From Fidelibacterota bacterium (GTDB lineage Bacteria; Fidelibacterota; UBA2242), in the NCBI GenBank assembly GCA_023133185.1, contig JAGLWX010000067.1:1-39662 (forward strand): a DNA stretch of 39,662 nucleotides, given 5' to 3'. Positions within the stretch are counted from its first letter, which is position 1. The number at the start of each line of letters is the position of its first letter. Shown one piece after another: positions 4,086 to 35,295 of this stretch. The notes under the pieces were generated by a model, which saw only the letters and a list, made by a program, of their open reading frames with translations, searched no databases and was not told the origin of the DNA. The position numbers and the translations under genes are program-made.

Positions 4086-4250
4086 TAAAAGTTTTGTCCT
4101 ATGAAACAATGTTGTTTGATTATGCAAACATATTAACCACCCCATAATCCCCTCCTTGCTAAGGAGGGGAAAAAGGGGAGGTTGATTGGAATCTTTATGA
4201 AATAAGGCTTTTTCCAGCTCAACTTTCCTAAATTACTATTCCACTTGTCA
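4086..4250 (+). repeat. MITE-like nested-hairpin element, copy 1
   Basis: About 105 nt are almost identical to the reverse complement of 35190-35295 (taaaagttttgt..tgcaaa..ttaaccaccccataatcccctccttgctaaggaggggaaaaaggggaggtt), with weaker similarity beyond. The core is an inner 10-bp stem (cccctccttg/caaggagggg) within an outer stem (aaccacccc/ggggaggtt). Confidence 0.7.
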
Positions 4251-6091: not shown

Positions 6092-6567
6092 AACAAGGAT
6101 TAACGATTTTTGATTTGAGAAGTTAAAGACAGATGAATAAATTTGACCTTGAAGAACGATTAATAGATTTTTCAGTATTGATTATTGAAATAGCGAGTGA
6201 AATGCCAAATACAAAAGCAGGAAGTCATTTATCAGGGCAATTAATTCGATCAGGGACATCTGTTTCTTTAAATTATGGAGAGGCTCAAAGTGGAGAGTCC
6301 CGAAAAAACTTCATTCATAAAATAAAAATTGTGCTGAAAGAGTTAAGAGAAACTTTCATCTGTTTGAAAATCATATTCAGAACAAAATTGTATAAATCTG
6401 AGGGAAAAATTAAAACAGCCCTGAATGAAAGTGACGAATTAATATCAATATTCGTAAAGAGCGTTGAAACAGCACAAAAGAATATGGAGAAGTGAAATCT
6501 TTGCCGAAGGCATGCCTATGGCAAAATCATAAAATAAATCAGAAATCGCTATTCGTTAATCCTTGTT
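6092..6567. repeat. Perfect 15-bp inverted repeat pair bracketing the four-helix-bundle ORF (IVS-like cassette)
   Basis: aacaaggattaacga (6092-6106) and tcgttaatccttgtt (6553-6567) are exact reverse complements. Similarity extends further (gatttttgattt / gatttctgattt). A third partial copy, tattcgttaatc, lies at 6025-6036. Confidence 0.75.
6133..6495 (+). CDS. Four-helix-bundle protein (23S rRNA intervening-sequence protein family)
   Basis: 120-aa ORF. The pattern SGQLIRSGTSVSLNYGEAQSGESRKNFIHKIKIVLKELRET is characteristic of the TIGR02436/PF05635-type family. Confidence 0.8.
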   Translation: MNKFDLEERLIDFSVLIIEIASEMPNTKAGSHLSGQLIRSGTSVSLNYGEAQSGESRKNFIHKIKIVLKELRETFICLKIIFRTKLYKSEGKIKTALNESDELISIFVKSVETAQKNMEK

Positions 6568-11944: not shown

Positions 11945-12307
11945 TGTTTTCTCTCCGTACCGTCAGTTAGAATACAGGCTACAGAGCAGAGCCCTGTAGC
12001 CAACCCGATAACTCAACCCCTCATTCCGGCTTTTCAAAAAGAATTGATTTTGGCGCTCTCCCCTTCTCTTTGAAAGAGAAGGGGACGGGGATTGAGTTCT
12101 ATTCTCCCATCTTGGGCCATTTCGCCGATAGGAATAACCCACCAATTTATTGGTGGGAATACGATACCACCATACCCGACCCGGATAACCGTTTTAACGG
12201 TTTAATAATGAAAACCCACAACGAATCGTGACAAACCGATAAATCGGTTCGTAGAGTGGTGATTGTAACACCGTATTCCCCACGCTAAAGCATGGGGCTA
12301 CTCCTAA
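11945..12307 (+). repeat. Structured 3' trailer (L element plus one H1-H2-H3-H4 hairpin unit), copy 1
   Basis: About 90-95% identical by eye to 32365-32702. Contains hairpins ggctacag..ctgtagcc (11977-12001), ccccttctctttgaaagagaagggg (12060-12084), H1 at 12138-12157, H2 at 12187-12202, H3 at 12234-12249 and H4 at 12278-12297. Confidence 0.85.
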
Positions 12308-14270: not shown

Positions 14271-15095
14271 ATGAAACGTTTATTGATTTTTTCGTTAGTC
14301 GTTTTTTACTTTTTCAGCTGGCGTTGTGAAATTATAACCGATCCCGGCTTTGATAACCCCGTTGACAGTACGGCTTCCGAGCATATTCCGCCTCAAACTA
14401 CGATCCTTGCCGGGCCTGCAGATAATGAGGTTATTAATACTCATACTGTCACATTCAAATGGAGCGGTAATGAAACTGCGGCAGAATTTTTCTATAGTCT
14501 GGACACAAAGGCATGTAGTGATTGGACAAGCGATACGACCGCAACATTTGAACTGTTAGACGAAGGCGAGCATCTCTTTACCGTCGTGAGTAAGACGCCG
14601 GCAGGTGAAATTGAAGATAATCCTCCTCTGCGTCAGTTTCAGATCGATGCGGTAAAAGGACCGGCGCTGCGGTTTTATCCACGGAAAGTCAGGGTAGCAA
14701 CAAACGAGACATTTACTGTTGAAGTTGTCGTGGAGGAGGTGACTGACCTGATGGGATTGTACATTGAACTGCCCCTGAATCCAAACGGTTTGGAATTGAT
14801 TGATCGTGAAATCTACCTCGGAACCAGCGACTTTCTGTCCAAAGAAAGTCAAAATATTTTGACTGTTGATGTGGAAGATTTGACAAATAATCTGCTCAAA
14901 ATTACTCTCGGTCGCGTTTCGGATATCAATGCCGGAGTAAGCGGCACGGGCAAAGTCATTCAGCTGACCTATCGGCTGACAGGCGATCAAAATACATTGC
15001 TATCATTCACACCCAATTGCGCGATGGAAAACAGCCAGATTCAATCGATCGAGATACTTGAACGGGTCGATTGTGTGATAGAGGTGGGGGAGTGA
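14271..15095 (+). CDS. Cohesin-domain protein (N-terminal signal/anchor, Ig-like domain, cohesin-like domain)
   Basis: 274-aa ORF starting 13 nt after the PEGA gene with GGAG upstream. The cohesin-like segment is LRFYPRKVRVATNETFTVEVVVEEVTDLMGLYIELPLNPNGLELID..GVSGTGKVIQLTYRL. The last few codons run into the REP array. Confidence 0.75.
   Translation: MKRLLIFSLVVFYFFSWRCEIITDPGFDNPVDSTASEHIPPQTTILAGPADNEVINTHTVTFKWSGNETAAEFFYSLDTKACSDWTSDTTATFELLDEGEHLFTVVSKTPAGEIEDNPPLRQFQIDAVKGPALRFYPRKVRVATNETFTVEVVVEEVTDLMGLYIELPLNPNGLELIDREIYLGTSDFLSKESQNILTVDVEDLTNNLLKITLGRVSDINAGVSGTGKVIQLTYRLTGDQNTLLSFTPNCAMENSQIQSIEILERVDCVIEVGE
14661..15080 (+). other. Cohesin-like domain
   Basis: ETFTVEVVV..V.DL.G....L...P.GLEL pattern with a later G.SG.G.V pattern, as in non-cellulosomal cohesins. 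Confidence 0.55.
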
Positions 15096-15343
15096 ACTCA
15101 CCCCTTGATCCCCTCTCTTGCAAGAGAGGGGAAATCGGCGCACCTAAAGAAAAAGGTGAATCGGTTCCGGGTTTTATGGATGGTATCGATATAATCCCCA
15201 CGTTGAAACGTGGGGTTAACCCTAATAACGATCAATCGAACGTTTCAGATAGGGCTAACCCACCAATTCATTGGTGGGATAAAAGCGCCCCAACCCACCC
15301 CCAACAAAACCGTTTTAACGGTTTAAAAGACAAAGGGTAAAAA
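15096..15343. repeat. REP/BIME-like palindrome array upstream of the RAYT gene
   Basis: cccctctcttgcaagagagggg (15110-15131), half H3 (~15155-15168), H4 ccccacgttgaaacgtgggg (15196-15215), H1 cccaccaattcattggtggg (15259-15278), H2 aaccgttttaacggtt (15308-15323). Confidence 0.85.
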
Positions 15344-15787
15344 ATGTCCCATTCATACATCGCCAATTGGCTGCACATCATCTGGTCAACCAAAGACCGG
15401 GATCGGTGTCTATTCAAAGGATCAGCGGTAAAGATCAGACAGCACTTCCTTGAAAAAGCCGAAGAAAATAATGCTCCGATCGAAACCATAAACATTCAAC
15501 CGGAACACGTACATATATTGATAAATCTCCCCGCCACGAAATCCCTGGATTCGGTGGTGCATCAGATGAAAGGTGAATCGTCCCATTGGATCAATGATGA
15601 GAAATTGTTAAAAGGACATTTTCATTGGCAGAAGGGATACGGGGCGTTTTCAGTGAGTGCGTCGATGGGGGAACAGGTTAAGGAGTATATCAAAAATCAG
15701 GAAGAACACCATCGGCGAAAGACATTTGCGGAAGAGTATGAGGAGTTTTTGGAGAAATACGGATTTGAGGTCGATAGTGATTTTTAA
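15344..15787 (+). CDS. REP-associated tyrosine transposase (RAYT), Y1/IS200-like HUH family
   Basis: 147-aa ORF. The HUH motif is in QPEHVHILINLP and the C-terminal Tyr box in VKEYIKNQEEHHRRKTF. The N-terminus WLHIIWSTKDR is typical of the family. There is no TnpB partner, and both flanks are palindrome arrays. Confidence 0.85.
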   Translation: MSHSYIANWLHIIWSTKDRDRCLFKGSAVKIRQHFLEKAEENNAPIETINIQPEHVHILINLPATKSLDSVVHQMKGESSHWINDEKLLKGHFHWQKGYGAFSVSASMGEQVKEYIKNQEEHHRRKTFAEEYEEFLEKYGFEVDSDF

Positions 15788-16150
15788 AGTAAAAACCGAT
15801 AAATCGGTTCCCGGGTATTGTGTTGGTGTGATCATGTGCCCCCCGATAAATCGGGGGGTTAACCCTAAACGCATATCCAAACCATCACGCCATGGGGCTA
15901 ACCCACCAATTTATCGGTGGGATTTGGATGATCATCTCGTATTTCACACCTATTTTAATGGGGGTTTTGAAACCGATAAATCGGTTCCAGGTTTAATGGA
16001 TGGTAACGACATGGTCCCCACGTTGAAACGTGGGGTTAACCCTAATCGAGATTCATTAAACAATGCGTGTAGGAATAACCCACCAATTTATTGGTGGGAT
16101 AAAAACGCCCCAATTCCCCCAAAAATTAACCGTTTTAACGGTTTAATAAT
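15788..16150. repeat. REP/BIME-like palindrome array downstream of the RAYT gene
   Basis: H3 15794-15809; chimeric ccccccgataaatcgggggg 15839-15858; H1 variant 15902-15921; H3 15971-15985; H4 16016-16035; H1 16079-16098; H2 16128-16143. Confidence 0.85.
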
Positions 16151-16181
16151 GAAAACCTCCAATAAACAAAAAGGAACCATT

Positions 16182-16262
16182 ATGATTCCGATTAAACGAA
16201 TCATCACAATCACGACAATATTCATCGGACATAACCTGCTTATTCTGCAGACAGCCCGCGCA
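16182..16262 (+). repeat. 81-bp duplicate of the first 27 codons (signal peptide) of the giant gene
   Basis: atgattccgattaaacgaatcatcacaatcacgacaat..ctgcagacagcccgcgca matches 17643-17723 with a few mismatches (MIPIKRIITITTIFIGHNLLILQTARA vs MIPIKRIITITTIIFGLNLLILQTARA). The reading frame stops 7 codons later. Confidence 0.9.
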
Positions 16263-16279
16263 TTAAATAAAAAAGGTGT

Positions 16280-17077
16280 TTGAGATTGAGTAATAAAGAA
16301 AAACAAACCTTTCCTATTGAACAAATTAAACACCGTATTTATTTCATACGTGATGTACAAGTAATACTTGATTGTGATCTATCCATAATTTATGGTGTCG
16401 AAACCAAGCAGGTTAATAGAGCAGTTAAACGTAATGAAGATAGATTCCCAGAAGAATTTATTTTTCAATTGACTAAAAAAGAATGGCAAAACTTGAAGTT
16501 CCAAACTGGCACTTCAAGTGAACATGGCGGCAGAAGAAAACTACCATATGTTTTCACAGAACAAGGAGTCGCAATGCTCTCCGCGGTATTGAGGAGTGAT
16601 CGGGCGATAAAAGTAAGTGTGCAAATTATTAACGCCTTTGTTGCCATGCGAAAATTTATCGGCAGCAATGCAAAACTATTTCAGAGAATAAATCAAATTG
16701 AACTAAAGCAATTAACGGATAAAAGCGAAATCGATGTGAAATTTGAAAGAATCTTTGATGCTATCGAACAAAAGGAAATTTCACCGAAACAAGGCATTAT
16801 ATATAATGGCCAAATTTTTGACGCCCATGCCCTGGTGTCCAAAATTATACAGTCGGCAAAAAAGTCTATTATCATTATCGATAATTATATTGATGACAGC
16901 GTCTTAACATTATTAACGAATAGAAAAAAAGGCGTCCGGGCAAAAATATACACCAAATCCATTTCAAAACGATTAGCGTTAGATATTAAAAAGTTTAAAA
17001 ATACTGGGGAAGCTCAAATGAATACAACGAAAAAACCGATGAATCGGTTCCGGGTTTCATGGATGGTAACGTCATGA
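16280..17077 (+). CDS. ORF6N/KilA-N-like DNA-binding protein, probably 3'-truncated by the REP array
   Basis: TTG start at 16280 or 16286, preceded by aaggtg. The N-terminal pattern IYFIRDVQVILDCDLSIIYGVETKQVNRAVKRNEDRFPEEFIFQLTKKEW is typical of ORF6N proteins. The C-terminal part IIIIDNYIDDSVLTLL..IYTKSIS..LALDIKKF breaks off into repeat-derived sequence (TKKPMNRFRVSWMVTS). From memory, family members continue about 60-80 aa further. Confidence 0.6.
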   Translation: MRLSNKEKQTFPIEQIKHRIYFIRDVQVILDCDLSIIYGVETKQVNRAVKRNEDRFPEEFIFQLTKKEWQNLKFQTGTSSEHGGRRKLPYVFTEQGVAMLSAVLRSDRAIKVSVQIINAFVAMRKFIGSNAKLFQRINQIELKQLTDKSEIDVKFERIFDAIEQKEISPKQGIIYNGQIFDAHALVSKIIQSAKKSIIIIDNYIDDSVLTLLTNRKKGVRAKIYTKSISKRLALDIKKFKNTGEAQMNTTKKPMNRFRVSWMVTS

Positions 17078-17560
17078 TCCCCATGCTAAAGCATGGGGTT
17101 ACTCCTAGTCGCGCTTATCCGAATTATACGTGTAGGAATAACCCACCAATTTATTGGTGGTCAGTGGAATCCATAATCCAAAGCCCAAACCGTTTCAACG
17201 GTTTATTACATAACCATGATGGATCGGGATGGATATGTACCACCACACCAATCCCCATATATAAAACCGATGAATCGGTTCTTAGAGGTGGTGGTTGTGA
17301 CACCATATTCCCCATGCTAAAGCATGGGGTTACTCCTAGTCGCGCTTATCCGAATTATACGTGTAGGAATAACCCACCAATTTATTGGTGGGATAAAAAC
17401 GCCCCAACGCCATCCGATAACAACCCCCGATACATCGGGGCAGGCTGTTTCAACGGTTTAATAACGAAAATCCCCAGCCCCTTTCTGGCTGAGGGCAGCG
17501 AATGGGGAGAGAGACGGAACTCAACCCCCTGCCCCTTCTCTTTGAAAGAGAAGGGGAGAT
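17030..17560. repeat. REP/BIME-like palindrome array (two full H3-H4-H1-H2 units) immediately upstream of the giant gene
   Basis: H3 17034-17049, H4 17079-17098, H1 17142-17160, H2 17188-17203, H3 17265-17280, H4 17310-17329, H1 17373-17392, chimeric ccccgatacatcgggg 17425-17440, half H2 ~17447-17460, ccccttctctttgaaagagaagggg 17532-17556. The H3-to-H3 period is 231 bp. Confidence 0.85.
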
Positions 17561-17642
17561 CGCATCAATCATTGTTTTTTGCAATACTTTTTCCAGGGGA
17601 TGAGTTTGTAACCAACAACCAATCAAAATATGAGGATGTCCT

Positions 17643-20600
17643 ATGATTCCGATTAAACGAATCATCACAATCACGACAATAATCTTCGGACTTAACCTGC
17701 TCATTCTGCAGACAGCCCGCGCACAAGGCAATCGAATTGATGTTCCTGCCGATTACAGCGCCATCCAATCCGCTATCGATGCATCTACTAATGGCGATAC
17801 TGTCCTTGTCCAACCCGGCACCTACGTAGAGAATATCAACTTCAACGGCAAGAATATCGTTGTTGGGTCATTGACATTGACAACTGGTGACACCTCATAT
17901 ATATCCCAGACGGTGATTGATGGAAATCAAAATGGGAGTGTGGTTACGTTTAATAATAGTGAAGATTCCACAGCGGTATTGAGTGGCTTTACTATAACTA
18001 ATGGCTATGCCTCAGGAAACGACGACCGAGAAAGCCGTGGTGGTGGTATATATTGTGGTTATTATGCTGCTACCGACCCCAATCCCACATTAATGAACCT
18101 AATAATTAAGAATAATACAGCAACCCAACATGGAGGAGGTGTTGCTATTGATGTTGCAAATGTAAACTTAAAAAATATTAAAATAATTAATAATACAGCT
18201 GAAAGTGAGGGTGGAGGAATATATTGTCGTGATGCGAATAATACTTATATTTCCAATGCGTTGATATCTGGTAATACAGCCCATAGGCATGGTGGTATTA
18301 GATGTGAGAATTCTGATCCAGTACTCAATAATGTTACAATCACAAATAATACAGGAAGTGATGGTGGCGGTATTGGTTGCAGGTATTATTCTGATCCGGT
18401 ATTAATTAATACGATAGTTTGGAATAATCTACCGAATAATGTTTATTTCATTTTGGATTATCCTGAAAATTCGATTACTTTTTCCTACTCTGATATCCAG
18501 GGCGGCCAGGACAGTATTGTCACAAATGACAATGGCTCTGTGATCTGGCTCTCCGGCAACATTGATCTCTATCCCCAATTCGTCGATTCTGCCAATGGTG
18601 ATTACCGCTTAGCCGATACTTCTCCCTGCATCGCTATGGGAACCAACTCTATCGAAATCGATGGAACTACATACACGGCACCTACAATCGACCTCGACGG
18701 TAACCCCCGACCGATGCCAGCCGGAACTCGCCCTGATATGGGAGCGTATGAGAATCAGACCGCCTATCCCGACACCACCTACATCACCGGCGGCACGATC
18801 AGCACGGACAGCACCTGGAGCAAGGCCCGCAGCCCCTATGTGATCTCCGGGGATGTTACTTTAGCAAACGGTGCTACGCTTTCGATAGAGCCTGGAGTTA
18901 AAATATATTTTAAAGCAAATCACGATGATCAGAATTCAGGTTCAAATAATAATCTTTCAGAATTGAGAATTAATGATGGATGGCTAAAAGCTAATGGAAC
19001 AGACACTGATTCTATTGTTTTTACAAGTCGGTCATCTAATCCAAATGATGGGGATTGGGGAGGTATAAGACTTAATTCCAGTCAGCGAGACTCTCTACAG
19101 TATTGTGTGATTGAATATTCCGGTATTGGGTTGTTTTTTAATTCAAATGCTTTAATCAAACATTGTCGGATTTCCCATTCACCTGAACCTGGAATAGCAG
19201 TTGCCCAGAATTCCAATACCTCTGTCGATACAACTATAATATCAAATTGTAATATTTCAAATAATCAAGGTAATGGAGTATCATTTGCTGGTTCGAATCC
19301 CCTTAAACTACAGAAAAGTAAAATATATGCAAATCAGGCAAATGGCATTTACATTGGATGGGACTCACCAACTGAATTTTATTTAATTCAGTTTAATAAT
19401 ATTCATTCCAATTCAGGCTTCGATATATATAACGCGGTTCATGGGGATATCGATGCCCGCTACAACTACTGGGGCACCACCGCCACTGCTGAAATGTCCA
19501 CCACACCGGAACTCCATAATATCTCCACTATCCACGATTATTTCGACGACAACAGTCTCGGCACTGTCGATTACTCCCAATTCCTCGATGCGCCCTGGCC
19601 CGATGGTGAACCGGTCTTCCCCGACACCACCTACATCACCGGCGGGACGATCACTCAGGACAGCATCTGGACAAAAGCTCGGAGTCCATATAAGGTACTT
19701 CAAGATCTTACTATAAATAACGGTGCTATTTTAACAATTGAGGGCGGAGTTGAAGTCATAATAGCAACAAATACTAATCCTGAAGATCCTGGTATTTCAA
19801 TAATTATTGCAAATGGCTCAATCAACATGGAATCCGATCAAAGCAACTTGATCAGGTTTGTAACTGAGGATTCCACATATATGCCAACAGATGGTAACTC
19901 AGGATTAGGATGGAGAGGGTTATCATATTGGAATTCAGTAGCCGATGTGCATGATTGTATTATTGAAAATGCGAACACGGGAATTCAAATCTTAGCTGAT
20001 AGTTTTCATGTTGCAAGAACTATTTTTACAAATTGTTTCGCTGCCATGCACATTTCTTCCCACAACAGTGGGTTTAACAATGGTTCTATTCGTAATGTAA
20101 CAATTAGCAAAATGACTAATCCTCCTGGTGAACCCTCCGATTCGCCAATTGAAATATATGCTCCAGGAAATGTGTCAATTGAATACTCCAATATTGAAAG
20201 TATAAATAATTCTCAATATTCTGACATTGATGCCAAATACAACTACTGGGGCACCACCGCCACCGCCGAGATGTCCACCACGCCGGAACTCCACGATATT
20301 TCCACCATCCACGACTACTTCGATGATAATAGCCTCGGCACGGTGGACTACTCCCAGTTCCTCGACGCTCCCTGGCCTGATGGCGAACCGGTATTCCCCG
20401 ACACCACCTACATCACCGGCGGAACCATATCTCAGGACAGCACCTGGACAAAAGCACTAAGTCCTTATGTGATCTCCGGGGATGTTGTTGTGGGTAATGG
20501 AGCGACTCTGACGATTGAGCCGGGGGTGGAGGTGTTATTTGTATATAGAACTGATGCTATGGCCTCTGGTGCACACCTTGATTTAATCGAGATTACCATT

Positions 20601-23600
20601 AATGCTAACTCAAGATTAATCGCAAATGGAACTGAATCAGACAGTATTTTCATTAGATCACGTTCAAATCCAGAACAAATTTGTGGATGGGGAGCGATCT
20701 ATTTGAATTCAGATTCAAATGAAATTAATTATACAAAAATTGAAAATGCATATAAAGCACTCTTTGTTAATGGTGCCGTAAAAATGTATAACTCATATAT
20801 TAATAATTGCGCATTTGGTATATATAAAGAACTAAATGATAATTTTGATATAAAATATTGTACATTTTCAAATAATTATGATGCTGATATTTGGATGAAT
20901 GGAATCTATGGCGATGAACAAATTCAAAATAATAATTTTTATTCATTAATTGCTATTTATATCAATTATTATACAAATGATGTTTTATCTGCAACTAATA
21001 ATTATTGGGGCTCTGTTTCAACAAGTGAAATTTCAGAAGGAAATAACCCAAAAAACATCTCTTCAATTCATGATAAATATGATGATCTTCAAATGGGACT
21101 TGTCGACTACTCCCACTGGCTCGACGCCCCCTGGCCCGATGGTCAACCCGTAGGCGGCACCTATGGTGCCGAATTACTAATTACGAATTACGAATTTACT
21201 AATGAAATGCTTACCTACCATTCCGGGGACAGCATCTTCATCCAGATCACGGACCCTGACCGCAACAGCGACGACATCATTCCCGATCAACTCACTCTGG
21301 ACATCTGGAGCGAAACCGAGACCACTCACGAAACCCTGACCCTCAACGAGACCGACCTCGCCACCGGCATCTTCCGGGGCTGGATCAAATTAGACGACGC
21401 CACCGGTGTGCCCTTCCCGGACGGGCAGCTGCAGCTCAGTCATGGCGACTGGATGTATTTTCAGTATATTGATCCGGCGGATGATTGGGGAAATGTGGAT
21501 ACTTTACTTGATGGTCGTGTTTTTGAACTGACCGTGAAGAATGGATACGCACTTGCTGATGATGAGACTTGGACCTTATCAAATGAACCATATTTGATCA
21601 CTGGCGATATTCAAATTTATACTTTTAAAACTCTTACGATTGACCCGGGTGTAAGAATCTATGTTTTACCATATCATGATGATTTTCAAGTGAATTATGA
21701 AACCAACTTAAGCGATATTGAAGTAAATGATGGCACATTGAACGCTGTTGGAACAATTAGTGATAGTATAATCTTTTCTCCTTATTCAATTACAATTCAT
21801 CCAAATATGTGGCGTGGAATAATATTTACTGGATCTGAAAACACAAACGGTGAAATTCGATACTGTCGAATAGAAGGGGCAGTGCGAGGAGTTGATATTG
21901 AAGGAAACTCTCCTATTATTAGTCACTCAAATATAAGAAATAATGAACAAGGCGTTTGGATAAGTGGAAATTGGAGTAGTGATGTTCCGAGGGATAATTC
22001 AAAGATTAAAAGTTGTAATATATCAAAGAATGAGCATGGTATATATGTTGTTGGTTCAACGACTATTAAAGACAACGTAATAAAAGATAACAAATACGGA
22101 ATTTTCCTTGGTCAAGGAGGATTTCCAGTTTCAATTACTGGTAATACACTATCAAATAATGAATGTACCAGTTTATATGTTAGGCCAATTGATGTATCAG
22201 AAGTAATATTTTCGAATAATAATATTCCCTATAATGGTGGAAATTCTGTTATAGACTATTATTCCCAAGAGGAGTTGATTGCTAAATACAATTATTGGGG
22301 CACTGCAACCACCTCTGAAATGAATTCCGGCAGTAATCCAAAAAATATATTCGCTATTCTGGATAAGTTCGACGATCAATCCAGAGGAATCGTCAACTAC
22401 TCTCGTTGGCTGGACGCACCCTGGCCCGATGGCACACCGGCGCCGGGCGGATATACCGGGGAGATGAATTTCATCTATTCCGACGGCAGCGACGCCTGGG
22501 GCTACAATGAAGGCGACACGCTCTATGTCAAACTCTACGATCCCGATCTGAATACCGATATCAATACTCCTGAATATGCCACCGTCGAGGTCTGGAGCCA
22601 ACTGGAAAACGTCCCGGAGATGCTCAATCTCAACGAAGTTGACGCCGACACCGGGCTATTCATCGGCTGGATGCTGTGTGACAGTCAGACCGGTTTCGCC
22701 ATGACCGATGGAGTTTTACAGGTGGATCAGGGGAACCGGGTTTGGGTACAATATACCGATGCTGTAGATGATTGGAATAATCAGAATACAACAACTCAGG
22801 ATTCGGTTACCTATGATTTCCGTATTCGGGAATATGAGTCGGATGAGAATACGGTTTTGTTGCTGCATTTTAATGAAGGGGAAGGACAATTATTAAATGA
22901 TGCTAGTGACTTTAGCAATAATGGTCAGCTCGGGCCATCTGTTAATCAAGATTCACAGGATCCAGTATGGATTGCTGGAATTAATGATTTTGGACTATCA
23001 TTTGATGGATCTGACGACTATGCTTTCGTAAATCATATTGATAAATATAATTTAACCGATTTGACAATTGATTTTTGGATTTTTTCTGATGCATCTATGG
23101 GTAATTGGGGATGTATTGTTTCTAAAGAAAATAATGATTCACCACTTGCTTGGCCATTTAGTATCCATATTGAATCCAGTTCTGGGAGAGTGATGCATAA
23201 TTTTTCTGTTGATGTTGGGGGGCATCATTCGTTCACATCAGAAAAAAGTATTAAAGAAGTTGGCTGGCATCATGTGAGAGTTGTAAGAAATGACACATTA
23301 AAAACTGTAAAAATATACATCGATCAAATACTTGATAATACGTGGAATTATAATGGAACAATAGATCAAAACGACCAAATTATTGGAATTGGAAGCAATC
23401 CTACCGGAGGAGGATGGGGCTTTCCATTTAAAGGGTTAATTGATGAGCTAAGAATATCGAATATCGCCCGGACTTCCTTTGATTATGAATACACCGAAAA
23501 TCCTCCTGGCAAGGTCAGCGACCTCGCTGTTATCGACTCTACCTCCCAGTCCATCACACTACAGTGGCATGCGCCCGGCGCGGATAATTACACCGGTACC

Positions 23601-26600
23601 TGTGATCTCTACGACCTGCGCATATCCACCAGCCTGATTGATTCCGCTAATTTCGCCTCGGCTTCTCCTGTTTCCTGTTTCCTTTCTCCTTCCTCCGCCG
23701 GTACGTTACAGTCGTTCATGGTGGATAGTCTGAATTATGCTACGACCTACTATTTCGCCCTGAAAGCCAAAGATGACGAAGGCTTATGGTCGCCGATCTC
23801 CAATGTTGTCGCTGGGCACACCGAACCCAAAGACGAAACGCCGCCGGGGACCATCAGCGATCTGGCGCAGAGTTCCGTTTCCAAGCGCAGCGCGATCATC
23901 ACCTGGACCGCACCCGCCGATGACGGGCAATCGGGACGTCCTATCTCCGGCTACACGGTCTATTACGCCACTTTCCCGATCAATGGCACTAATTTTATGA
24001 CGGCTGACTCCCTTGCTCCTCTGCACCTCAGCCCCCTCTTTCCGGGCGTTGCGATTTTCGATACACTTACCAACTTATTACCCAATACCCTTTACTACGC
24101 CGCCGTCCGCTCTTACGACGAAGTCCCCAACTGGTCGGCGCTTTCCAATGTTCTGCAACTCACCACCGCAGCGGTTCCGGTGATTGCAGACGTCACATTT
24201 CCAATGAATGCCTACGACGCGCAGCGCAGCCGCAGTGTGCCCTATAATGGCGCGACGCTGGGAACCTTCCGCTGGACCTTCAATACCGGCGCGGCGGTGT
24301 CATCGTCGCCGGTAATCGACAATGACGGGACGGTTTATGTCGGTTCCGAAGATGGTAAGGTCTATGCCGTCGATCCCGGCGGGAATCAGCTGTGGAGCAA
24401 GAGTCTTGGCGAGGGCGTCTTCGCAGCGCCCTGCATCGGCACGGAGAATCATCTCTTCGTTACATGCAAGAACAATAAAGTCTATGCACTGAATAAAACC
24501 ACCGGCGATACGCTCTGGACTTACACCACCGGTGGGCAAATCTACAGTTCACCGGTCATCAGTTCTTTCGGTTATCTCTATGTGGGCAGTCTCGATAATA
24601 AAGTCTATGCCCTGACAAGTGACGCCGGCGATTTGGTCTGGACTTTCACCGGCAGCGGGAAGTTTTACGCTTCACCGGCGTTGACTATTGACGAATCCAA
24701 ACTGATTATCGGCGATCAATCAGGCAAACTCTACGCATTGAATCCTCATACCGGCGAAAAACTCTGGGAATACCCGGCGAATTCTGCTATCTATGCCAAT
24801 GCTGCGGTGGACTCTACTGGCAATATATATTTCGGCGCCCAGAACGGCAGGCTCTATTGTCTCTCATCAATCGGCGCTTACAAGTGGGATTACAATACCG
24901 GCGGTGCGATCTTCTATGCCTCACCGACGCTGGGTTATGCTTCGGTATCCACAAAAGCAAGCATGGTAAATGATGCTACTGATATGTTAAAATCCTTTAA
25001 GAAAGTTGATACAGGAAACAGGAATCAGGAAACAGGAATCAGGAAAAGGGAATCAGGAAATTGGAAACTGGAAACCGGAAAGTCGATAAATCGAAAAGCG
25101 GCAATGCGGAACGATAATACTCTATTAAAATCCAAAGATCAAAGTACTGCCAAAATTCCATCTTCCGGTCTCCGTTCTTCCGTCTCCGGTCTCCTGTCTC
25201 CTGTCTCCTCAATCTCCGGTTCTTCTGCTGATGTGATCTACATCGGTTCCGACGGTCAGAAACTGCACGCCGTGAATGCGTCAACGGGAGCCAATATCTG
25301 GTCCTACACGACGCTCGGCAATATCCGCAATGGCGCGGTGCTGAGCGCCAACGGTTTTCTTTATTTCGGTTCATCCGATGATTTGCTGTACTGTATCAAG
25401 ACCGATGGCAGCCGCCGCTGGGCATATAAGACCGGTGGTGATCTTTATACCTCCAATCCGGCGATGGGGCTGGACGGCGCGGTCTATATCGGCTGCTACG
25501 ACAATAAACTCTACGCCGTGGGCGAATACCTCGAAGTGGTCGATCCGGTGGTGGTCTCCACCTATCCGGCGATGAACTCCTGCACTATGCCGGTTGATAC
25601 GACGATCCGGGTGAAATTTAATACCATTATCAATATGTTCACTGTTGATGAAAACTCATTCTATGTCTATGGTAAACAGCATGGCAGATATAGCGGAACA
25701 TATGCCTGGAGTGCTGCTGACTCCGCAGTAGTATTCACATCGAATGATAATTTCTTTTATGGTGAGGAGATTACTGTCCTGCTTACTGATGGAATTAGGA
25801 GTGTGAGTGGGGGGAACTATCAGAATTTGCGAATTACTTTTTATACGAAACCAATACCACAAAATGAAACCTTGTCCTCAACTCCTAGTTGGGTTACCTC
25901 GGAAATATTTAACAATGAAGATATAGCACTTGCAGATTTGAATGGTGATGGTTATCTGGATATGGTAGCCTTACGTGGATATGATGAACCTAGGCCTTCT
26001 CTGTATATATACCTGAATGCCGGTGGATATTTTAATCAGACCGCGACTTATTCAATTTTTGTTGATGCTCATGGCCTGATAGATGTGGTGGATATTGACA
26101 ATGACGGAGATCCGGATATTTCATTTTACAGCAATGAAAATAGCCGGATAGAGATATATAAGAATACGAGTGGATTTTTGTCCATGACACCGCAGATTAT
26201 CAATGCTCGTGGATTTTATTCCTGGGGTGATCTAAATAATGACTCATATCCTGATCTAGCTGTAAAAACTGATTATAATAGGATTTATCTAAATAATTCA
26301 GGGACTATTGAAAGTGACCCAGTTTGGAGCGAATACACAGGGGAAGCATATCATGCTGAACGATGTATCTGGGTGGATTACGATAGTGATGGGGACCAGG
26401 ATATTCTTTTTGGATTAAAGCTTTATCGCAATAACAATGGAACGGTTGGTACAGTTGTTTACCAATTGGGAGCAGGACTTCCGAACGGAGAAACACAAGA
26501 CTATGCAGTAGGTGATATTGATAGGGATGGATATCCAGAGATAGGTTTAGCCTCACCGGTCTATCCATCATCGAGTAAAGTATATAAATATAATGGGATA

Positions 26601-29600
26601 GATGCATTCACAGAAATTTGGTCGAGTAGCCATGGGACATCTAGATCAATAGAATTTGTTGATGTGGATGGAGATGGATATCTGGATTTGTATCTAGGAA
26701 CATTTGGATCAAAAGGGAGAGAAAATTACACTCAGGATGTAGTGTATTTAAATCACAGCGGAGAAATAAGTACAGTACCTGATTGGGCAACCGATGAGGT
26801 TACGAACACGCTTAAGAGTGCATGGGGAGATATAGATAGAGATGGGGATATGGATCTGGCATTGGTAAGTAATACACAAATTAGGGAACCTATATATGTA
26901 TATTTCAACCACCTCGAATGGCGCTTCAACGTCTCAATCGATGAAATGACCCAGCCCGAATATTCCGGAACTTTTGCGGTTCCTTATACCATTGATAATC
27001 CCGGCAACAATTCGACGTCGTTGATCTGTCGATATTCAACCAATAACGGCACTACCTGGAATATTCCGACAACCGTCAGCGATACTACGGATATTGGATC
27101 GTCAGGTTACGAAGGAACAATTGCCTGGCAGTCGGCGGTTGACCTGCCGGGTCTGGATATTGAAGATGTCGTTTTTGCTATCACGCCCTGGGACAATGCA
27201 AATACCGGCAAGTCCGATACAGTGCATATCCATGTGGACAATAACCTGCCGCCAACTGTTGATATGGTTGCAATCTCCGGTGAACAGAGCGGCGATATAC
27301 CAATTACGGTCAATTATAATGACGCAGAGAATGATACACTGACATTGACGGTGGAATATGCCGAAGTTGGTGATCAGAACTGGTTAGCGGCTTCAGTCGA
27401 TGCCGATATAAATGCTCTCACAGGATCAAGTCTTGCCCTGACGTGGAATACATTGACCGATCTGCCTGATATGTCCGGCGCTTACCGGTTCCGGGTGACT
27501 GCCCGTGATAAGGATCAGGGTGTGCCGGATACACTGGCAATTCGGATTGACAACTATCATAAACAGTCCATCTCTTTATCTATCAGTGAGAGTCCCGTCC
27601 GGGATACACTGGATATAAATTATTCGATTACCGATCCCACGAATGACACTCTGCGACTGATCTGCCGTTACGCCGTCAATGCGCAATTTGATGATAAAGC
27701 GTCTTCAACTAAAAGTGGATTAATCGGCAACGATCCGGTTTCCGGTACCGGTCGATTTCCTACGAAATCGGCGAAAAAAGGCAAACCGTTTAAATCGTCA
27801 AAATCTGCTGAATCAGTTGAAATTGTAAATCCTGTTCCGATAAGTCGGGATTCCTACGGAATTAGTCCTGTAAAAGGCATTACTTCGGCGGAATGGCATC
27901 TGCCCTACATTGTCAGCGACACACTTCAGATCACGCCTGATGAATACAGCGGGATTCTGCAATGGTACACCCATTACAACCTGCCCGGAATGGATATTGA
28001 CACTGTCGTGCTGACAATTCATCCCGACGATTATTGGGCAGTGGGAACAGGTGATACGCTGATCTTTGAATTGGACAATAATCGCAGTCCGGTAGCGAGT
28101 ATCTCACCCATTGCCGGCGAAGAATCCGATAGCGTCACTATTCATTATTCGATAACTGATACGGAAGGTGATCAGGCGTCAATCTATTGTGAATTCAAGC
28201 GCAAGTATGAATTGAACTGGCATCCTGCAACCGTTTTTGGCGATACCGTCAACCTTGCGACCGGAGATCATTCATTAATATGGTTGTCTTCAAATGATGT
28301 CCCCGCTTATGTTGGACACGTGATTTTCCGGATTACTCCCAAAGATAACGATCAGGGTGAGGCGACGTCCATTGAAATATTAATAGACCAGGTCGGCGCG
28401 CCGATGGTGACAGCGCTTTCAGTTGGCAGCGCTGATGAATATTCCGGTGATATCAGCGTCGCTTATGTCATTACCGATGATGAAAGCGATGCTGTGGATT
28501 TGTCTGTTGAGTATTCGCTGAGCGATGGACAAGGCTGGCAGACGGCGACCGTCGGCGGCAATGTTACGGGCATTACACCTGAGAATTATACCGGGTCCTT
28601 TGTGTGGCACTCGGTAACTGACGCCGCAGGTGTTGATTCACCGGCGGTATGCCTGCGAGTGACGCCGTCGGATGGACATTCAGGCGGAGCTCTGATTAGC
28701 GAAGCCTTTCACCTGGATAATAATGAAGCGCCTGAAATTGCTCTGAATGTAGAATATACGGAACTCAATGGAATGATAGACCTGCCTTACGTAATCACGG
28801 ATGCGGAATCTGATTCTATCAGGATGAAATTGCAATATTCCTCCGATAAGATGAACTCCTGGAATGATTGTACGCTGGAGAGTGATTCCATAATTGGCGC
28901 AGACGAATATTCCGGTTCTGCTTCATGGAATTCGGTAACAGATTTACCGGGAATTGATATTGACTCGCTTTTTGTAATGCTGCAATGCTTTGACAATGAT
29001 TCCGGTAATATTGATACCGCAATGCTTCATATAGATAACAATGCTGTTCCGGTTGTGGAGATTGCACCGCTCATGACCGAACAGCACGATACGGTAATAA
29101 TTCAATATACTGTTTTTGACGAAGAATCTGACCAATTGACTGTAAATGCAAGTTTCAGTTATGATAATGGACAAAACTGGAGTTCGTCAACATTATCCGC
29201 AGGCGGTAAAAACAGTGTCGGAGGAAAGTTGGAAACCGGCGGGCAACTTGTCTGGAATTCCTTTACTGATCTGCCTGATACAAATTGCCAGGACCTGATG
29301 TTCAGGATTCGGGTTTTTGATAATGATGAAGGTATTGATGATACAATTACTTTTGATCTGGATAATTATCAATTACAGAGCATAGACATTGCCGACATTA
29401 CAGAAGAACAGAGAGATACGGTTACATTCGATATTACCCTTACAGATGAAAGCAATGATACCAGCGACCTGAATATTGCTTACAGCATTGACGGGGGAAT
29501 TGACTGGCTGGAGAGTATTGCAATTGATGGAGAAATGAATAATTATCTTCCGGGTAATTTCCAATTGCAATGGAGTTCTATGGACGACCTGCCGGGTTTT

Positions 29601-32364: not shown

Positions 32365-33450
32365 CTTTCTCTCATTCTGTCAGTTAAGATAAGCCAGCCC
32401 GATAACTCAACCCCTCATTCCGGCTTTTCAAAAGGCATTGATTTTGGCGCTCTCCCCTTCTCTTTGAAAGAGAAGGGGACGGGGGATGAGTTCTATTCTC
32501 CCATCTTGGGCTATTTCGCCATAGGATTAACCCGCCAATTTATTGGTGGGAATACGATACCACCATACCCGACCCAGGATAACCGTTTCAACGGTTTAAT
32601 AATGGAAAACCCCAACGAATCGTAGCAAACCGATAAATCGGTTCGTAGAGGTGGTGGTTGTGACACCGTATTCCCCACGCTAAAGCATGGGGCTACTCCT
32701 AATCGAGATTCATTAAAAAACTCGCATAGGACTAACCCACCAATTTATTGGTGGGATATAAACGCCACAACGCCTCCCGATAACAACCGTTTCAACGGTT
32801 TATTACCTAACCATGATGGATCGGGATGGATATGTACCACCACACCAATCCCTATATATAAAACCGATAAATCGGTTCGGCATTTCGACGAATCGGGGTG
32901 ATGATGAGTCCACCCCTCTCTCTCAGCACACTTCAGTGTATTTTCTCCCGTTCCGTCAGTTAAGACACAGGCTACAGAGCAGAGCCCTGTAGCCAGCCCG
33001 ATAACTCAACCCCTCATTCCGGCTTTTCAAAAGGCATTGATTTTGGCGCTCTCCCCTTCTCTTGCAAAGAGAAGGGGTCGGGGGTTGAGTTCATTATTTC
33101 TCCCCTACACAATCCTCTTCCAAAAAAGGGACGGGGGTTGAGTTCTATTCTCCCATCTTGGGCCATTTCGCCATAGGATTAGCACCATGCTTTAGCATGG
33201 TGTGAGAGAGAGAATGAGTACCCCTTCAACGCACTTCAGTGTATTTTCTCTCGTTCCGTCAGTTAAGACACAGGCTGCAGAGCGGAGCTGTAGCCCGATA
33301 ACTCAACCCCTCATTTCGGCTTTTCGAAAAGCATTGGTTTTGGCGCTCTCCCCTTCTCTTGCAAAGAGAAGGGGTCGGGGGTTGAGTTCATTATTTCTCC
33401 CCTACACAATCCTCTTCCAAAAAAGGGACGGGGGATGAGTTCTATTCTCC
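32365..33450. repeat. Repeat cluster: 3' trailer copy 2 (32365-32702), a further H1-H2-H3 unit, and two more L-element copies (~32925-33180, ~33225-33450)
   Basis: Hairpins: 32454-32478 (ccccttctctttgaaagagaagggg), H1' 32531-32550, H2 32581-32596, H3 32628-32643, H4 32673-32692, H1 32736-32755, H2 32785-32800, H3 32862-32877. Further hairpins: ggctacag/ctgtagcc 32970-32994, ccccttctcttgcaaagagaagggg 33053-33077 and 33350-33374, caccatgctttagcatggtg 33183-33202. Confidence 0.85.
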
Positions 33451-35124: not shown

Positions 35125-35295
35125 TCTTAAGGTAAAAAATTACTTTAGTAAAATTTTCTTGAGGCTGAAGAAATGTCCTATCAAAGTTTGTAACCTCCCC
35201 TTTTTCCCCTCCTTGCCAAGGAGGGGATTATGGGGTGGTTAAAATATTTGCAAAATCAAAGAACATTACTTCACAGAACAAAACTTTTAAAAATC
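35125..35295 (-). repeat. MITE-like nested-hairpin element, copy 2 (inverted relative to 4086-4250)
   Basis: The reverse complement reads ttaaaagttttgttctgtgaagtaatgttctttgattttgcaaatattttaaccaccccataatcccctccttggcaaggaggggaaaaaggggaggtt..., matching 4086-4190 almost base for base. Confidence 0.75.

What the first reader, a model, noticed from the sequence alone, without database searches (positions are those of the whole stretch)
15096..17560. RAYT embedded in an ordered array of four unrelated perfect palindromes (composite REP/BIME-like system)
Seen in sequence: ORF 15344-15787 has the HUH (PEHVHILI) and Tyr-box (EYIKNQEEHH) motifs of Y1 transposases. It has no IS200/IS605 partner gene. 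Both flanks consist of four distinct perfect hairpins. H1 is CCCACCAATTTATTGGTGGG, starting at 12138, 15259, 15902, 16079, 17142, 17373, 32531 and 32736. H2 is AACCGTTTTAACGGTT, at 12187, 15308, 16128, 17188, 32581 and 32785. H3 is AACCGATAAATCGGTT, at 12234, 15794, 15971, 17034, 17265, 32628 and 32862. H4 is CCCCAYGYTNAAGCRTGGGG, at 12278, 15196, 16016, 17079, 17310 and 32673. They always occur in the cyclic order H3-H4-H1-H2, with conserved spacers and a period of about 180-235 bp. The RAYT ORF occupies exactly the H2-to-H3 spacer of that cycle. Chimeric hairpins also exist (CCCCCCGATAAATCGGGGGG at 15839-15858, an H4-type GC clamp on the H3 core; CCCCGATACATCGGGG at 17425-17440). Established knowledge: RAYTs are domesticated Y1 transposases typically flanked by the REP hairpins they act on. 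Inference: one RAYT associated with four sequence-unrelated hairpins in fixed synteny, in an apparently non-proteobacterial T9SS organism, is not the textbook REP/REPIN doublet. It could be a new composite mobile unit, or several REP families sharing one enzyme.
Basis: partly seen in the sequence, partly recalled or inferred. Interest (0 to 1): 0.75.

Follow-up and report, generated by a model that had tools for sequence, protein, structure and literature searches.

The report
Domesticated Y1 transposase with hairpin arrays
A small, immobile IS200-like transposase gene in a Marinimicrobia genome sits inside arrays of a 173-base four-hairpin DNA palindrome, and the same gene-plus-hairpin layout recurs in several other phyla, for a transposase subclass that the literature lists as having no such repeats.

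Summary
H1 to H4 lie at every stated coordinate, in the order H3-H4-H1-H2, and the ORF fills an H2-to-H3 gap; shuffled sequence gives about zero matches.

Two parts of the interpretation need correcting.

- The ORF is not a classical RAYT. It is PF01797 and belongs to TnpA_Y1 subclass 1.2 (HVH, WQ, YIKNQEEHH). Quentin et al. 2018 list this IS200-proximal, low-copy subclass as having no REP.
- The hairpins are not unrelated. H1 and H2 have TTYA loops and H3 and H4 have the reverse complement, TRAA. H3 resembles the reverse complement of H2. H1 and inverted H4 share a TAGGRNTAA tag. With fixed 29/43/29 spacing, the 173-nt block is an imperfect palindrome, like a REPIN with two hairpins per arm. 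Its stems are kept by compensatory changes.

The gene holds the same chromosomal position in four Marinimicrobia lineages. It is 66-70% identical there, while neighbouring genes are 23-35% identical. The same hairpin order flanks homologues in KSB1 and Bacteroidota. In other phyla the identical H1 hairpin, there part of Rfam Acido-Lenti-1, flanks subclass-1.2 genes in inverted orientation.

Best reading: a domesticated Y1 nuclease with its cognate REP/REPIN-like elements, a new variant of a known kind. Enzymatic activity and genome-wide copy number are untested.

The parts
15344..15787 (+). Y1 HUH nuclease gene (147 aa), TnpA_Y1 subclass 1.2. HUH is H55-V-H57, then W95-Q96, then Y115-IKN-Q119-EE-H122-H123.
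   Evidence: PF01797 at 91 bits. NCBIfam transpos_IS200 at 74 bits (cutoff 55) and REP_Tyr_transpos at 33 bits (cutoff 80). The best solved relatives are ISDra2, IS608 and Sulfolobus TnpA, with Y115 and Q119 aligned to the catalytic YxxxQ. The motifs match subclass 1.2 in PMC6006769 Table 1.
15150..15323 (+). Block 1, directly upstream of the gene: degenerate H3, H4 (15196), tag plus H1 (15259), H2 (15308, which ends 20 nt before the ATG).
15794..15921 (+). Block 2, starting 6 nt after the stop codon: H3 (15794), H4 variant CCCCCCGATAAATCGGGGGG (15839), H1 (15902). It has no H2.
15971..16143 (+). Block 3, a complete 173-nt unit: H3-29-H4-43-H1-29-H2.
17034..17203 (+). Block 4, a complete unit. 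As ssDNA it folds into a closed structure in which the arms pair around a junction of H4, the central helix and H1.
   Evidence: z = -4.9.
17265..17462 (+). Block 5: H3, H4, H1, an extra hairpin CCCCGATACATCGGGG (17425) and half of H2 (17447-17462).
12129..12306 (+). Locus A, downstream of the 1519-aa peptidase C25/T9SS gene: tag-H1-29-H2-31-H3-28-H4-tag'. This is the permuted frame of the unit.
32522..32877 (+). Locus C, downstream of the 4904-aa gene: tag-H1-H2-31-H3-H4-43-H1-H2-61-H3.
15109..15132 (.). Fifth hairpin family (H5), TCCCCTCTCTTGCAAGAGAGGGGA, at the left edge of the array. Other copies are at 12059, 17532, 32453, 33053 and 33350, with related ones at 4148 and 35205.
   Evidence: and families D2 and D16.
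17532..17556 (.). H5 hairpin at the right edge of the array.
16280..17077 (+). ORF6N-domain gene (265 aa) in another H2-to-H3 gap. Its 3' end overlaps H3 of block 4.
   Evidence: PF10543 at 113 bits. It is absent from the orthologous site of the close relative L166.
16181..16262 (+). An 82-bp copy (95% identical) of the first 82 bp of the 4904-aa gene (17642-17723). Together with the original it brackets the ORF6N gene and blocks 4-5.
   Evidence: Family D13, and for the undisrupted state in L166.

Best explanation
The ORF encodes a domesticated IS200-like Y1 (HUH) single-strand DNA nuclease/transferase of TnpA_Y1 subclass 1.2. By domesticated I mean chromosomally fixed, apparently single-copy and slowly evolving.

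The hairpins are its cognate REP/REPIN-like elements. The basic module is a roughly 9-nt tag (TAGGRNTAA), then an 8-9 bp GC-clamped hairpin with a TTYA loop, then about 29 nt, then a 6-bp AACC..GGTT hairpin with a TTYA loop. Two such modules in inverted orientation, with the tags facing each other, make the 173-nt imperfect palindrome H3-H4-H1-H2. The gene sits between the small outer hairpins, giving tag-H1-H2-gene-H3-H4-tag'. This is the REPtron layout and looks like the relic ends of an ancestral IS200-type element.

Inferred mechanism: when the DNA is single-stranded, the enzyme binds a tag-plus-hairpin on whichever strand shows the TTYA loop. It then cleaves and rejoins next to it through Y115, with the metal ion held by H55, H57 and Q119. 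This would excise, copy or rearrange the gene-less modules, producing arrays and copies in nearby intergenic sites.

Shown: the protein family, the catalytic motifs, the palindromic architecture, compensatory stem evolution, synteny, and recurrence of the layout across phyla.

Inferred: that the enzyme acts on these hairpins, and that the modules spread by its action.
For: 1. Protein. PF01797 match, HUH and YxxxQ aligned to the ISDra2 TnpA catalytic residues, and subclass-1.2 signature motifs.

2. Not an active IS.
- The exact protein is found on only two contigs, both from the same organism.
- Orthologues at 66-70% identity lie between the same cohesin-like gene and the giant T9SS gene in L121-128, L129-133 and L173.
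- The neighbouring genes are only 23-35% identical.

3. Architecture.
- Fixed 29/43/29 spacing.
- Each block aligned to its own reverse complement scores 22-38, against a shuffle mean of -14 to -18, sd 7.5-8.4.
- ssDNA folds give z = -4.5 to -4.9, with the arms pairing.
- Loops are TTYA in H1/H2 and TRAA in H3/H4 in every lineage.

4. Structure is maintained. 13 of 37 pairs show changes on both sides and 93.6% of cells are paired. 0 of 500 shuffles reach this, and slid controls give 28-45% paired.

5. Recurrence.
- The same H3-H4-H1-H2 order with the gene in the H2-to-H3 gap occurs in KSB1 (52% identity), and an equivalent layout occurs in Tangfeifania, Bacteroidota (51% identity).
- In 9 of 11 subclass-1.2 loci an 8-bp-class hairpin (perfect stem of 5-8 bp) with a TTYA loop lies 79-113 nt upstream of the start codon. 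In 8 of 11 a hairpin with a TRAA loop and a perfect stem of 6-8 bp lies 42-90 nt after the stop codon.

6. A search using the H1 sequence alone retrieved 144 loci. Six of them carry a subclass-1.2 gene within about 150 nt of H1. Inverted Acido-Lenti-1-type units lie on both sides of the gene in L017 and L141, and upstream of it in L148.

7. Copy dynamics.
- Three intergenic loci in the window.
- Dispersed copies near the KSB1 gene.
- Block number differs among close relatives: one block and no gene in L166, and two blocks upstream of the gene in L164.
Against: - There is no biochemical evidence that subclass-1.2 proteins cleave DNA or bind these hairpins.
- Genome-wide abundance is unknown. 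A further 20 kb or so of the contig has no copies. In L173 the hairpins occur only at the gene. A protein search with the spurious ORF that spans the arrays found only 6 clusters.
- Copy-number differences could come from recombination between tandem units rather than transposition.
- The mobile unit is unresolved. The single unit in L166 reads H3-H4-H1-H2, whereas locus A reads tag-H1-H2-H3-H4-tag'.
- There is no canonical GT[AG]G at the hairpin foot.
- Hairpin sequence does not track Y1 phylogeny. H1 is identical where the proteins are 35-38% identical, and diverged where they are 66-70% identical.
Confidence: 0.6

Rival explanations
1. It is an active or recently active IS200-type insertion sequence, with LE = tag-H1-H2 and RE = H3-H4-tag'. 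The gene-less units would be its MITE/PATE derivatives, inserted in tandem.
For: - NCBIfam transpos_IS200 scores above its cutoff, and the closest solved structures are IS200/IS605 TnpAs.
- The gene is bracketed by inverted structured ends.
- Locus A is exactly LE plus a 31-nt spacer plus RE.
- A second cargo gene (ORF6N) sits in the same kind of gap.
Against: - The gene keeps a fixed syntenic position across lineages whose neighbouring genes are only 23-35% identical.
- The exact protein is at a single site.
- Subclass 1.2 averages 1.7 copies per genome, with 36% identity between copies.
- The invariant 43-nt H4-to-H1 distance is not expected for junctions between independently inserted elements.
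Confidence: 0.1
2. The hairpin blocks work mainly as RNA: an sRNA like Acido-Lenti-1, or 3'-UTR stabilisers or insulators for the very large secreted-protein genes. The Y1 gene would be only a neighbour, or would simply prefer to reside in such hairpins.
For: - Related two-hairpin units are curated in Rfam as the candidate sRNA Acido-Lenti-1.
- Stems show compensatory changes.
- All arrays are co-oriented with, and downstream of, long + strand genes.
Against: - The palindromic symmetry puts equivalent tag-plus-hairpin modules on both strands, which fits a DNA-level element better than a strand-specific RNA.
- The tight, orientation-specific link with a DNA nuclease gene across phyla is not explained.
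- On the + strand none of H1-H4 is followed by a T-run. Only weak terminator-like calls appear, and they are antisense.
- The window has no Rfam match.
Confidence: 0.15
3. The hairpins are only relic ends and regulatory structures of a fossil IS200-like gene. All extra copies would come from local duplication, unequal crossing-over and gene conversion, without any Y1 activity. The Y1 protein would be kept for an unrelated host function.
For: - The copies cluster within about 20 kb of the gene.
- Junction sequences (the 31-nt and 61-nt spacers) are copied along with the units at 91-97% identity, implying duplication of segments larger than one unit (families D10 and D14).
- L166 looks like a deletion between direct repeats.
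- An 82-bp duplication shows that recombination is active here.
- In L173 the units occur only at the gene.
Against: - Copies lie in three separate intergenic regions, separated by 3-15 kb of unrelated coding DNA.
- KSB1 has dispersed copies up to 10 kb from the gene.
- Acido-Lenti-1-type relatives are multi-copy genome-wide in several phyla.
- A 20-nt hairpin that is identical across phyla implies ongoing sequence-specific constraint.
Confidence: 0.15

Closest known systems
TnpA_Y1 subclass 1.2 (Quentin, Siguier, Chandler & Fichant 2018, BMC Genomics 19:475; PMC6006769)
   Same: - The length matches (147 aa here, median 148 aa).
- The WQ and YIKNQ(K/E)EHH motifs and the H[IV]H histidines match; the residue before them is E here, against D in the published DH[IV]H.
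- It is close to IS200 but low in copy number and not IS-like.
   Different: [quoted passage not shown] Here the gene is in Marinimicrobia and is flanked by conserved, orientation-specific hairpin modules. The same holds for homologues in KSB1, Bacteroidota and Calditrichaceae.
RAYT/TnpA_REP with REP, REPIN and BIME elements, i.e. REPtrons (Nunvar 2010; Bertels & Rainey 2011; Ton-Hoang 2012; Bertels 2017)
   Same: - A single-copy, syntenic, slowly evolving Y1 gene.
- It is flanked by inverted hairpin repeats that also occur without the gene in intergenic DNA.
- The units pair as inverted doublets that can fold into a long hairpin.
- They form mosaic arrays with regular spacing and complementary stem variants.
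   Different: - The protein lies outside class 2 (no Y-x3-NP; below the NCBIfam RayT cutoff).
- The tag is TAGGRNTAA, not GT[AG]G at the hairpin foot.
- Each arm has two hairpins plus a central helix.
- High genome-wide copy number has not been shown.
Rfam RF01687 Acido-Lenti-1 RNA motif (Weinberg et al. 2010; PMC2864571)
   Same: It is an 8-bp hairpin with a 4-nt loop, followed by CUA and a small second hairpin. In other phyla the large hairpin is 20/20 identical to H1, and these units flank subclass-1.2 genes.
   Different: The window's units do not match the model, because the second hairpin and the linker differ. The motif was described as a probable trans-acting sRNA in Acidobacteria and Lentisphaerae, sometimes near group II introns, with no link to transposases.
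IS200 and IS200/IS605 PATE/MITE derivatives
   Same: A tnpA-only unit with structured subterminal hairpins, and gene-less versions made of the two ends.
   Different: There is no evidence that the gene moves. Its position is conserved across deeply diverged lineages, and the ends are inverted copies of each other, unlike the same-strand, same-orientation LE and RE hairpins of IS608 (the last point is established knowledge, not tested here).

Membership tests
Y1 HUH transposase fold (Pfam PF01797 Y1_Tnp) | Profile match above the gathering threshold | tested here: met
   91.4 bits against a cutoff of 23, covering residues 9-119.
Y1 HUH transposase fold (Pfam PF01797 Y1_Tnp) | HUH metal-binding motif and catalytic Tyr in Y-x3-Q | tested here: met
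   H55-V-H57 and Y115-IKN-Q119 align with the HVH and YIESQ of ISDra2 TnpA 2XM3.
TnpA_Y1 subclass 1.2 (Quentin 2018) | Signature Y-x3-Q-x2-HH (YIKNQKEHH), WQ, DH[IV]H, length about 148 aa | tested here: met
   The protein has YIKNQEEHH, WQ and EHVH and is 147 aa (sequence, table). This was judged by motif only; the authors' HMM was not run.
TnpA_Y1 subclass 1.2 (Quentin 2018) | Low copy number, not IS-like | tested here: inconclusive
   There is one copy in the 65-kb contig, the exact protein occurs at one site, and orthologues are syntenic. The whole genome was not available.
RAYT / TnpA_REP (class 2; NCBIfam NF047646) | Class-2 Y motif Y-x3-NP and a RayT profile score above cutoff | tested here: not met
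   The motif is YIKNQ, not Y-x3-NP. REP_Tyr_transpos scores 32.9 bits against a cutoff of 80. No E. coli RAYT structure was among the PDB hits at E<0.01.
RAYT / TnpA_REP (class 2; NCBIfam NF047646) | Gene flanked by its repeats in inverted orientation (REPtron) | tested here: met
   The layout is tag-H1(TTYA)-H2-gene-H3-H4(TRAA)-tag'. The same layout is seen in 11 loci.
RAYT / TnpA_REP (class 2; NCBIfam NF047646) | Single copy, vertical inheritance | tested here: met
   Synteny is conserved in four Marinimicrobia lineages. Y1 is 66-70% identical while neighbours are 23-35% identical.
REP / REPIN elements | High genome-wide copy number in extragenic space | not testable with these tools
   There are 27 hairpins at 3 loci in 39.7 kb and none in a further 20 kb or so.
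REP / REPIN elements | 5' GT[AG]G tetranucleotide at the foot of the hairpin | tested here: not met
   H1 is preceded by [AG]TAGGRNTAA, so a GTAG-like element lies 6 nt from the foot and TAA lies at the foot. In other phyla it is TAG or TAA.
REP / REPIN elements | Two inverted units able to form one long hairpin | tested here: met
   Block-versus-reverse-complement alignment gives z of about 5-6, and the ssDNA fold pairs the two arms.
IS200/IS605 insertion sequence (autonomous) | Several near-identical copies at variable sites | tested here: not met
   The profile NF033573 is nevertheless above its cutoff.
Rfam RF01687 Acido-Lenti-1 | Covariance-model score at or above 37 bits | tested here: not met
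   There is no hit in the window at the gathering threshold, nor at E<=1 in 15000-17700. Loci from other phyla that carry the identical H1 score 38-51 bits.

The most novel reading that the evidence does not exclude
Subclass 1.2 would be a second domestication of an IS200-type transposase, independent of the class-2 RAYTs. It would have co-persisted across many phyla (Marinimicrobia, KSB1, Bacteroidota, Calditrichota, and Lentisphaerae- or Planctomycetes-like lineages) with a multi-hairpin, REPIN-like DNA partner. On this reading the Rfam 'sRNA' Acido-Lenti-1 is the DNA substrate of this enzyme, not an RNA gene.
Probability: 0.4. Interest if true: 0.75.

Novelty: new variant of a known kind. 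Interest (0 to 1): 0.62.

Why it matters
REP/RAYT systems are the main model for a transposase that stops moving itself and persists vertically alongside small non-autonomous DNA partners. So far they are tied to class-2 Y1 proteins, mostly in Proteobacteria.

If this reading holds, it has three consequences.

- A Y1 subclass closest to true IS200 transposases, and reported as REP-less, would also have a conserved, structured repeat partner across several phyla. Domestication would then have happened at least twice, or earlier than thought.
- An orphan Rfam motif, Acido-Lenti-1, would gain a concrete and testable function.
- There would be defined substrates for biochemistry: a tag plus a hairpin with a TTYA loop.

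It also bears on annotation. Gene callers turn these arrays into spurious 'hypothetical proteins', such as the 168-aa entry P0121.

Tried and rejected
- **Genome-wide census.** It showed how widely H1 is distributed across phyla but gave no copy number for this genome.
- **JGI metagenome scan with TAA+H1.** It returned 26 loci. Most are Acido-Lenti-1-type units and the rest isolated matches; none has the window's H2, H3 or H4.
- **Protein search with the spurious ORF that spans the arrays.** It found only 6 clusters, all at the orthologous locus of close relatives. It gave useful comparators (L164, L166) but no other loci.
- **Rfam.** The window gave nothing at the gathering threshold, and the three weak E-value hits (mir-K12-10, L4-Archaeoglobi, STnc560) are chance.
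- **Search for an empty site at locus A.** Comparison with L164 shows that modules are gained and lost (H3 and the 31-nt spacer are absent there), but it gives no precise insertion boundaries.
- **Strand assignment from G-T wobble versus C-A mismatches in variant stems.** I inspected this by eye; the results were mixed and I did not use them.
- **Intrinsic-terminator reading.** Only weak, antisense terminator-like calls appear, so I rejected this as the main function.
- **Strict block finder.** My first version required uninterrupted stems and missed most units. I replaced it with explicit coordinates and a MAFFT alignment. In that alignment the L121 H1 is shifted by 2 columns, which slightly understates pairing in helix 4.


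Full report
**1.

| Hairpin | Copies | Detail |
|---|---|---|
| H1 | 8 | 4 exact, 4 with one mismatch |
| H2 | 6 | 3 exact, 3 with a T>C change in the loop |
| H3 | 7 | 5 exact, 2 with an A>G change in the loop |

- All copies are on the + strand, at three intergenic loci: 12129-12306, 15109-17556 and 32522-32877.
- Dinucleotide-preserving shuffles give 0.00 matches for H1 and 0.02 for an H2/H3 pattern.
- The order is always H3-H4-H1-H2, with nearly invariant spacing: H3-29-H4-43-H1-(26 to 30)-H2.
- Only the H2-to-H3 gap varies: 31 nt, 61 nt, 470 nt (the Y1 ORF) or 890 nt (an ORF6N gene).
- Imperfections: one unit lacks H2, one has an extra small hairpin and half an H2, and the first H3 is degenerate.
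- A fifth hairpin family (TCCCCTYCTCTT..AAGAGARGGGGA) bounds the central array and recurs at the other loci.

**2. What the ORF is**

- ORF 15344-15787 (147 aa) matches PF01797 at 91 bits.
- In NCBIfam it passes the IS200/IS605 TnpA model (74 bits, cutoff 55) and fails the RayT model (33 bits, cutoff 80).
- Its closest solved relatives are the ISDra2, Sulfolobus and IS608 TnpAs. H55-V-H57 and Y115-x3-Q119 align to their catalytic residues. No E. coli RAYT structure was hit.
- The motifs EHVH, WQ and YIKNQEEHH and the length match TnpA_Y1 subclass 1.2 of Quentin et al. 2018 (PMC6006769). That paper describes the subclass as IS200-proximal, low in copy number (mean 1.7), not IS-like, absent from Bertels' RAYT groups, mostly in Cyanobacteria and Bacteroidetes, and with 'REP: no'.
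- So 'RAYT' is right as an analogy but wrong as family membership.
- The organism is a Candidatus Marinimicrobia MAG: GCA_030631535.1, and an ENA scaffold of 65 kb.

**3. The four hairpins are one palindromic unit**

- H1 and H2 have TTYA loops. H3 and H4 have TRAA loops, the reverse complement.
- H3 differs from the reverse complement of H2 only at the innermost base pair. H1 and H4 share the CCC(C/A)...GGG clamp.
- H1 on the top strand and H4 on the bottom strand are both preceded by TAGGRNTAA. These two tags pair as a 9-bp helix that closes the 43-nt spacer.
- Each full block aligned to its own reverse complement scores 22-38, against shuffle means of -14 to -18 (sd 7.5-8.4).
- As ssDNA the blocks fold with z = -4.5 to -4.9. 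The H3-to-H4 and H1-to-H2 spacers pair, or H3 pairs with H2, around a junction of H4, the central helix and H1.
- The unit is therefore REPIN-like: two inverted arms, each made of a tag, a large hairpin and a small hairpin.
- I aligned 11 units from the window and four related loci (A1). In that alignment 93.6% of cells pair and 13 of 37 pairs show changes on both sides. 0 of 500 shuffles reach these values, and slid controls give 28-45% paired.

**4. The gene is fixed in the chromosome and evolves slowly**

- The exact protein occurs at one site.
- Homologues at 66-70% identity (P0008, P0005, P0007) lie in the same position, after a PEGA/CsgG gene and a cohesin-like gene and before a giant T9SS beta-helix gene.
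- Those neighbouring genes are only 23-35% identical.
- At each of these loci the hairpin order and the position of the gene in the H2-to-H3 gap are the same. Stems and spacings have diverged. For example, H1 is CCCACAGATTCATCTGTGGG in L131 and CACCAGTCTTTAGACTGGTG in L121.
- A close relative, L166 (cohesin-like protein 90% identical), has exactly one block and no Y1 or ORF6N gene at the site. That is what a deletion between directly repeated blocks would leave.
- L164 has two full blocks upstream of the gene.

**5. The layout is general for this subclass**

- KSB1 (L171, 52% identity) has the same order: H3 AACCGTTGAAACGGTT, H4 CACCCGGATGAATCCGGGTG, H1 CACCCTGCTTCAGCAGGGTG, H2 AACTGCTTCAGCAGTT, then the gene, then H3-H4-H1-H2. 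It also has extra H4 and H1 copies in three other intergenic regions within 10 kb.
- Tangfeifania diversioriginum (Bacteroidota, L170, 51% identity) has the equivalent arrangement. There a TTAA-loop palindrome serves as both H2 and H3.
- Across 11 subclass-1.2 loci:
  - in 9, a TTYA-loop hairpin of the 8-bp class (perfect stem 5-8 bp) lies 79-113 nt before the start codon;
  - in 8, a TRAA-loop hairpin with a perfect stem of 6-8 bp lies 42-90 nt after the stop codon.

**6. H1 is far more widespread than this lineage**

These came from Calditrichia, Planctomycetota, Saprospiraceae, Chitinophagales, Lentisphaeria, Marinimicrobia, Methanothrix and others.
- The usual context is GTCCCnnnGGGAC, about 10 nt, TAG or TAA, H1, about 25 nt, GTCCCnnnGGGAC. 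A JGI metagenome scan gave 26 more loci, most of the same type.
- These two-hairpin units match Rfam RF01687 Acido-Lenti-1 at 38-51 bits. [quoted passage not shown]
- Six of the 144 loci retrieved by H1 carry a subclass-1.2 gene (YxxxQxxHH, 31-38% identical to ours) within about 150 nt. Two of them (L017, L141) are bracketed by inverted Acido-Lenti-1-type units.
- None of these loci contains H2, H3 or H4, and the window itself has no Rfam match.

**7. Interpretation**

The best-supported reading is a domesticated IS200-like Y1 nuclease with cognate REP/REPIN-like hairpin modules, in a REPtron-like layout that probably descends from the ends of an ancestral IS.

The mechanism is inferred by analogy with IS608/ISDra2 TnpA and E. 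coli TnpA_REP. The enzyme would recognise tag plus hairpin on single-stranded DNA in a strand-specific way, cleave through the tyrosine, and rejoin. That would move or rearrange the gene-less modules.

What remains unshown:
- any enzymatic activity;
- genome-wide abundance (no further copies in about 20 kb more of the contig; none away from the gene in L173);
- whether the mobile unit is H3-H4-H1-H2 or tag-H1-H2-H3-H4-tag'.

Local recombination clearly contributes. The 31-nt and 61-nt junctions are duplicated together with their units (families D10 and D14). An 82-bp duplication of the giant gene's 5' end brackets the ORF6N gene and two blocks.

Rival readings are an active IS with MITEs, RNA-level elements, and purely recombinational spread of relic ends. 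Each is less well supported, but none is excluded.

**8. Novelty**

Within the literature I could search, I found no paper that links subclass 1.2 to flanking repeats, and none that links Acido-Lenti-1 to a Y1 gene. Quentin et al. state the opposite for subclass 1.2.

I rate this a new variant of a known kind: REPtron/REPIN logic, with a different Y1 subclass, a different tag and a multi-hairpin unit. It is not a categorically new system.

Some points remain unexplained:
- H1 is 20/20 identical across phyla whose proteins are 35-38% identical, yet it has diverged among sister lineages with 66-70% identical proteins.
- The H4-to-H1 distance is exactly 43 nt even though the inner 25 nt are unrelated between copies.

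Noticed in passing
window 16181-16262 and 17642-17723; ORF6N gene 16280-17077: An 82-bp, 95%-identical duplication of the start of the 4904-aa gene (its signal peptide) brackets an ORF6N/KilA-N-type gene plus two hairpin blocks. The close relative L166 has the undisrupted state, with one block directly followed by the giant gene. This suggests a recombinational insertion, not a transposon-type target duplication.
   Followed up: partly
window 12059-12085, 15109-15132, 17532-17556, 32453-32479, 33053-33077, 33350-33374; related copies at 4148-4170 and 35205-35227: A fifth GC-clamped hairpin family, TCCCCTYCTCTT(3-4 nt)AAGAGARGGGGA, lies inside larger repeated modules: D2 of about 163 nt in 4 copies and D9 of about 63 nt in 3 copies. 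D2 ends in the same ATAGGAWTA tag that precedes H1. At 33183 the tag is followed by a different TTTA-loop hairpin, CACCATGCTTTAGCATGGTG. The intergenic DNA downstream of the large T9SS genes is therefore a mosaic of at least five hairpin families.
   Followed up: partly
window 17643-32357 versus L160/L002 and L161: The giant beta-helix/T9SS gene is 4904 aa in the window but 5366 aa on the ENA scaffold, and the NCBI MAG splits it across two contigs. Its internal repeats (families D5, D7, D8, D12) probably cause assembly differences or real length variation.
   Followed up: no
window 15071-15340, 15657-16283, 17059-17646: The hairpin arrays are open in one reading frame (peptides such as ..NPPIYWWDKNAP..NRFNGL..). 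Public annotations call them hypothetical proteins, for example P0121 (168 aa, 'hypothetical protein KAU06_02005'). These are almost certainly spurious genes.
   Followed up: partly
L011, L012, L045, L051, L077, L107, L118, L120 (Methanothrix and Methanotrichaceae MAGs): The archaeal loci carry CCCGCCAATTYATTGGTGGG, usually followed by GAGTAGTCAC or GATACAGCC. In L107 it forms the tip of a longer palindrome (GAGTGACTACT-hairpin-AGTAGTCACTC). I saw no adjacent Y1 gene in the stretches I fetched.
   Followed up: no
L006, L027, L041, L064, L070, L088, L093, L098, L111 (Saprospiraceae MAG-138): H1 occurs many times in this one MAG as the centre of a larger inverted element: GGGCTGAATTTTATCACGAAATAGTTTTAG-H1-... 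in both orientations. This is a different composite built around the same hairpin.
   Followed up: no
window 6133-6495 and about 36370-36765: Genes for a 23S_rRNA_IVP (four-helix-bundle) protein and a PDDEXK_3 protein lie in the same region. Both are small proteins of unclear function.
   Followed up: no
L121 2480-2990: Upstream of the orthologous Y1 gene of a sister lineage, only the two large hairpins alternate (H4-H1-H4-H1..., period 96 nt, at least 4.5 repeats), without H2 or H3. So the large-hairpin pair can be amplified on its own.
   Followed up: partly
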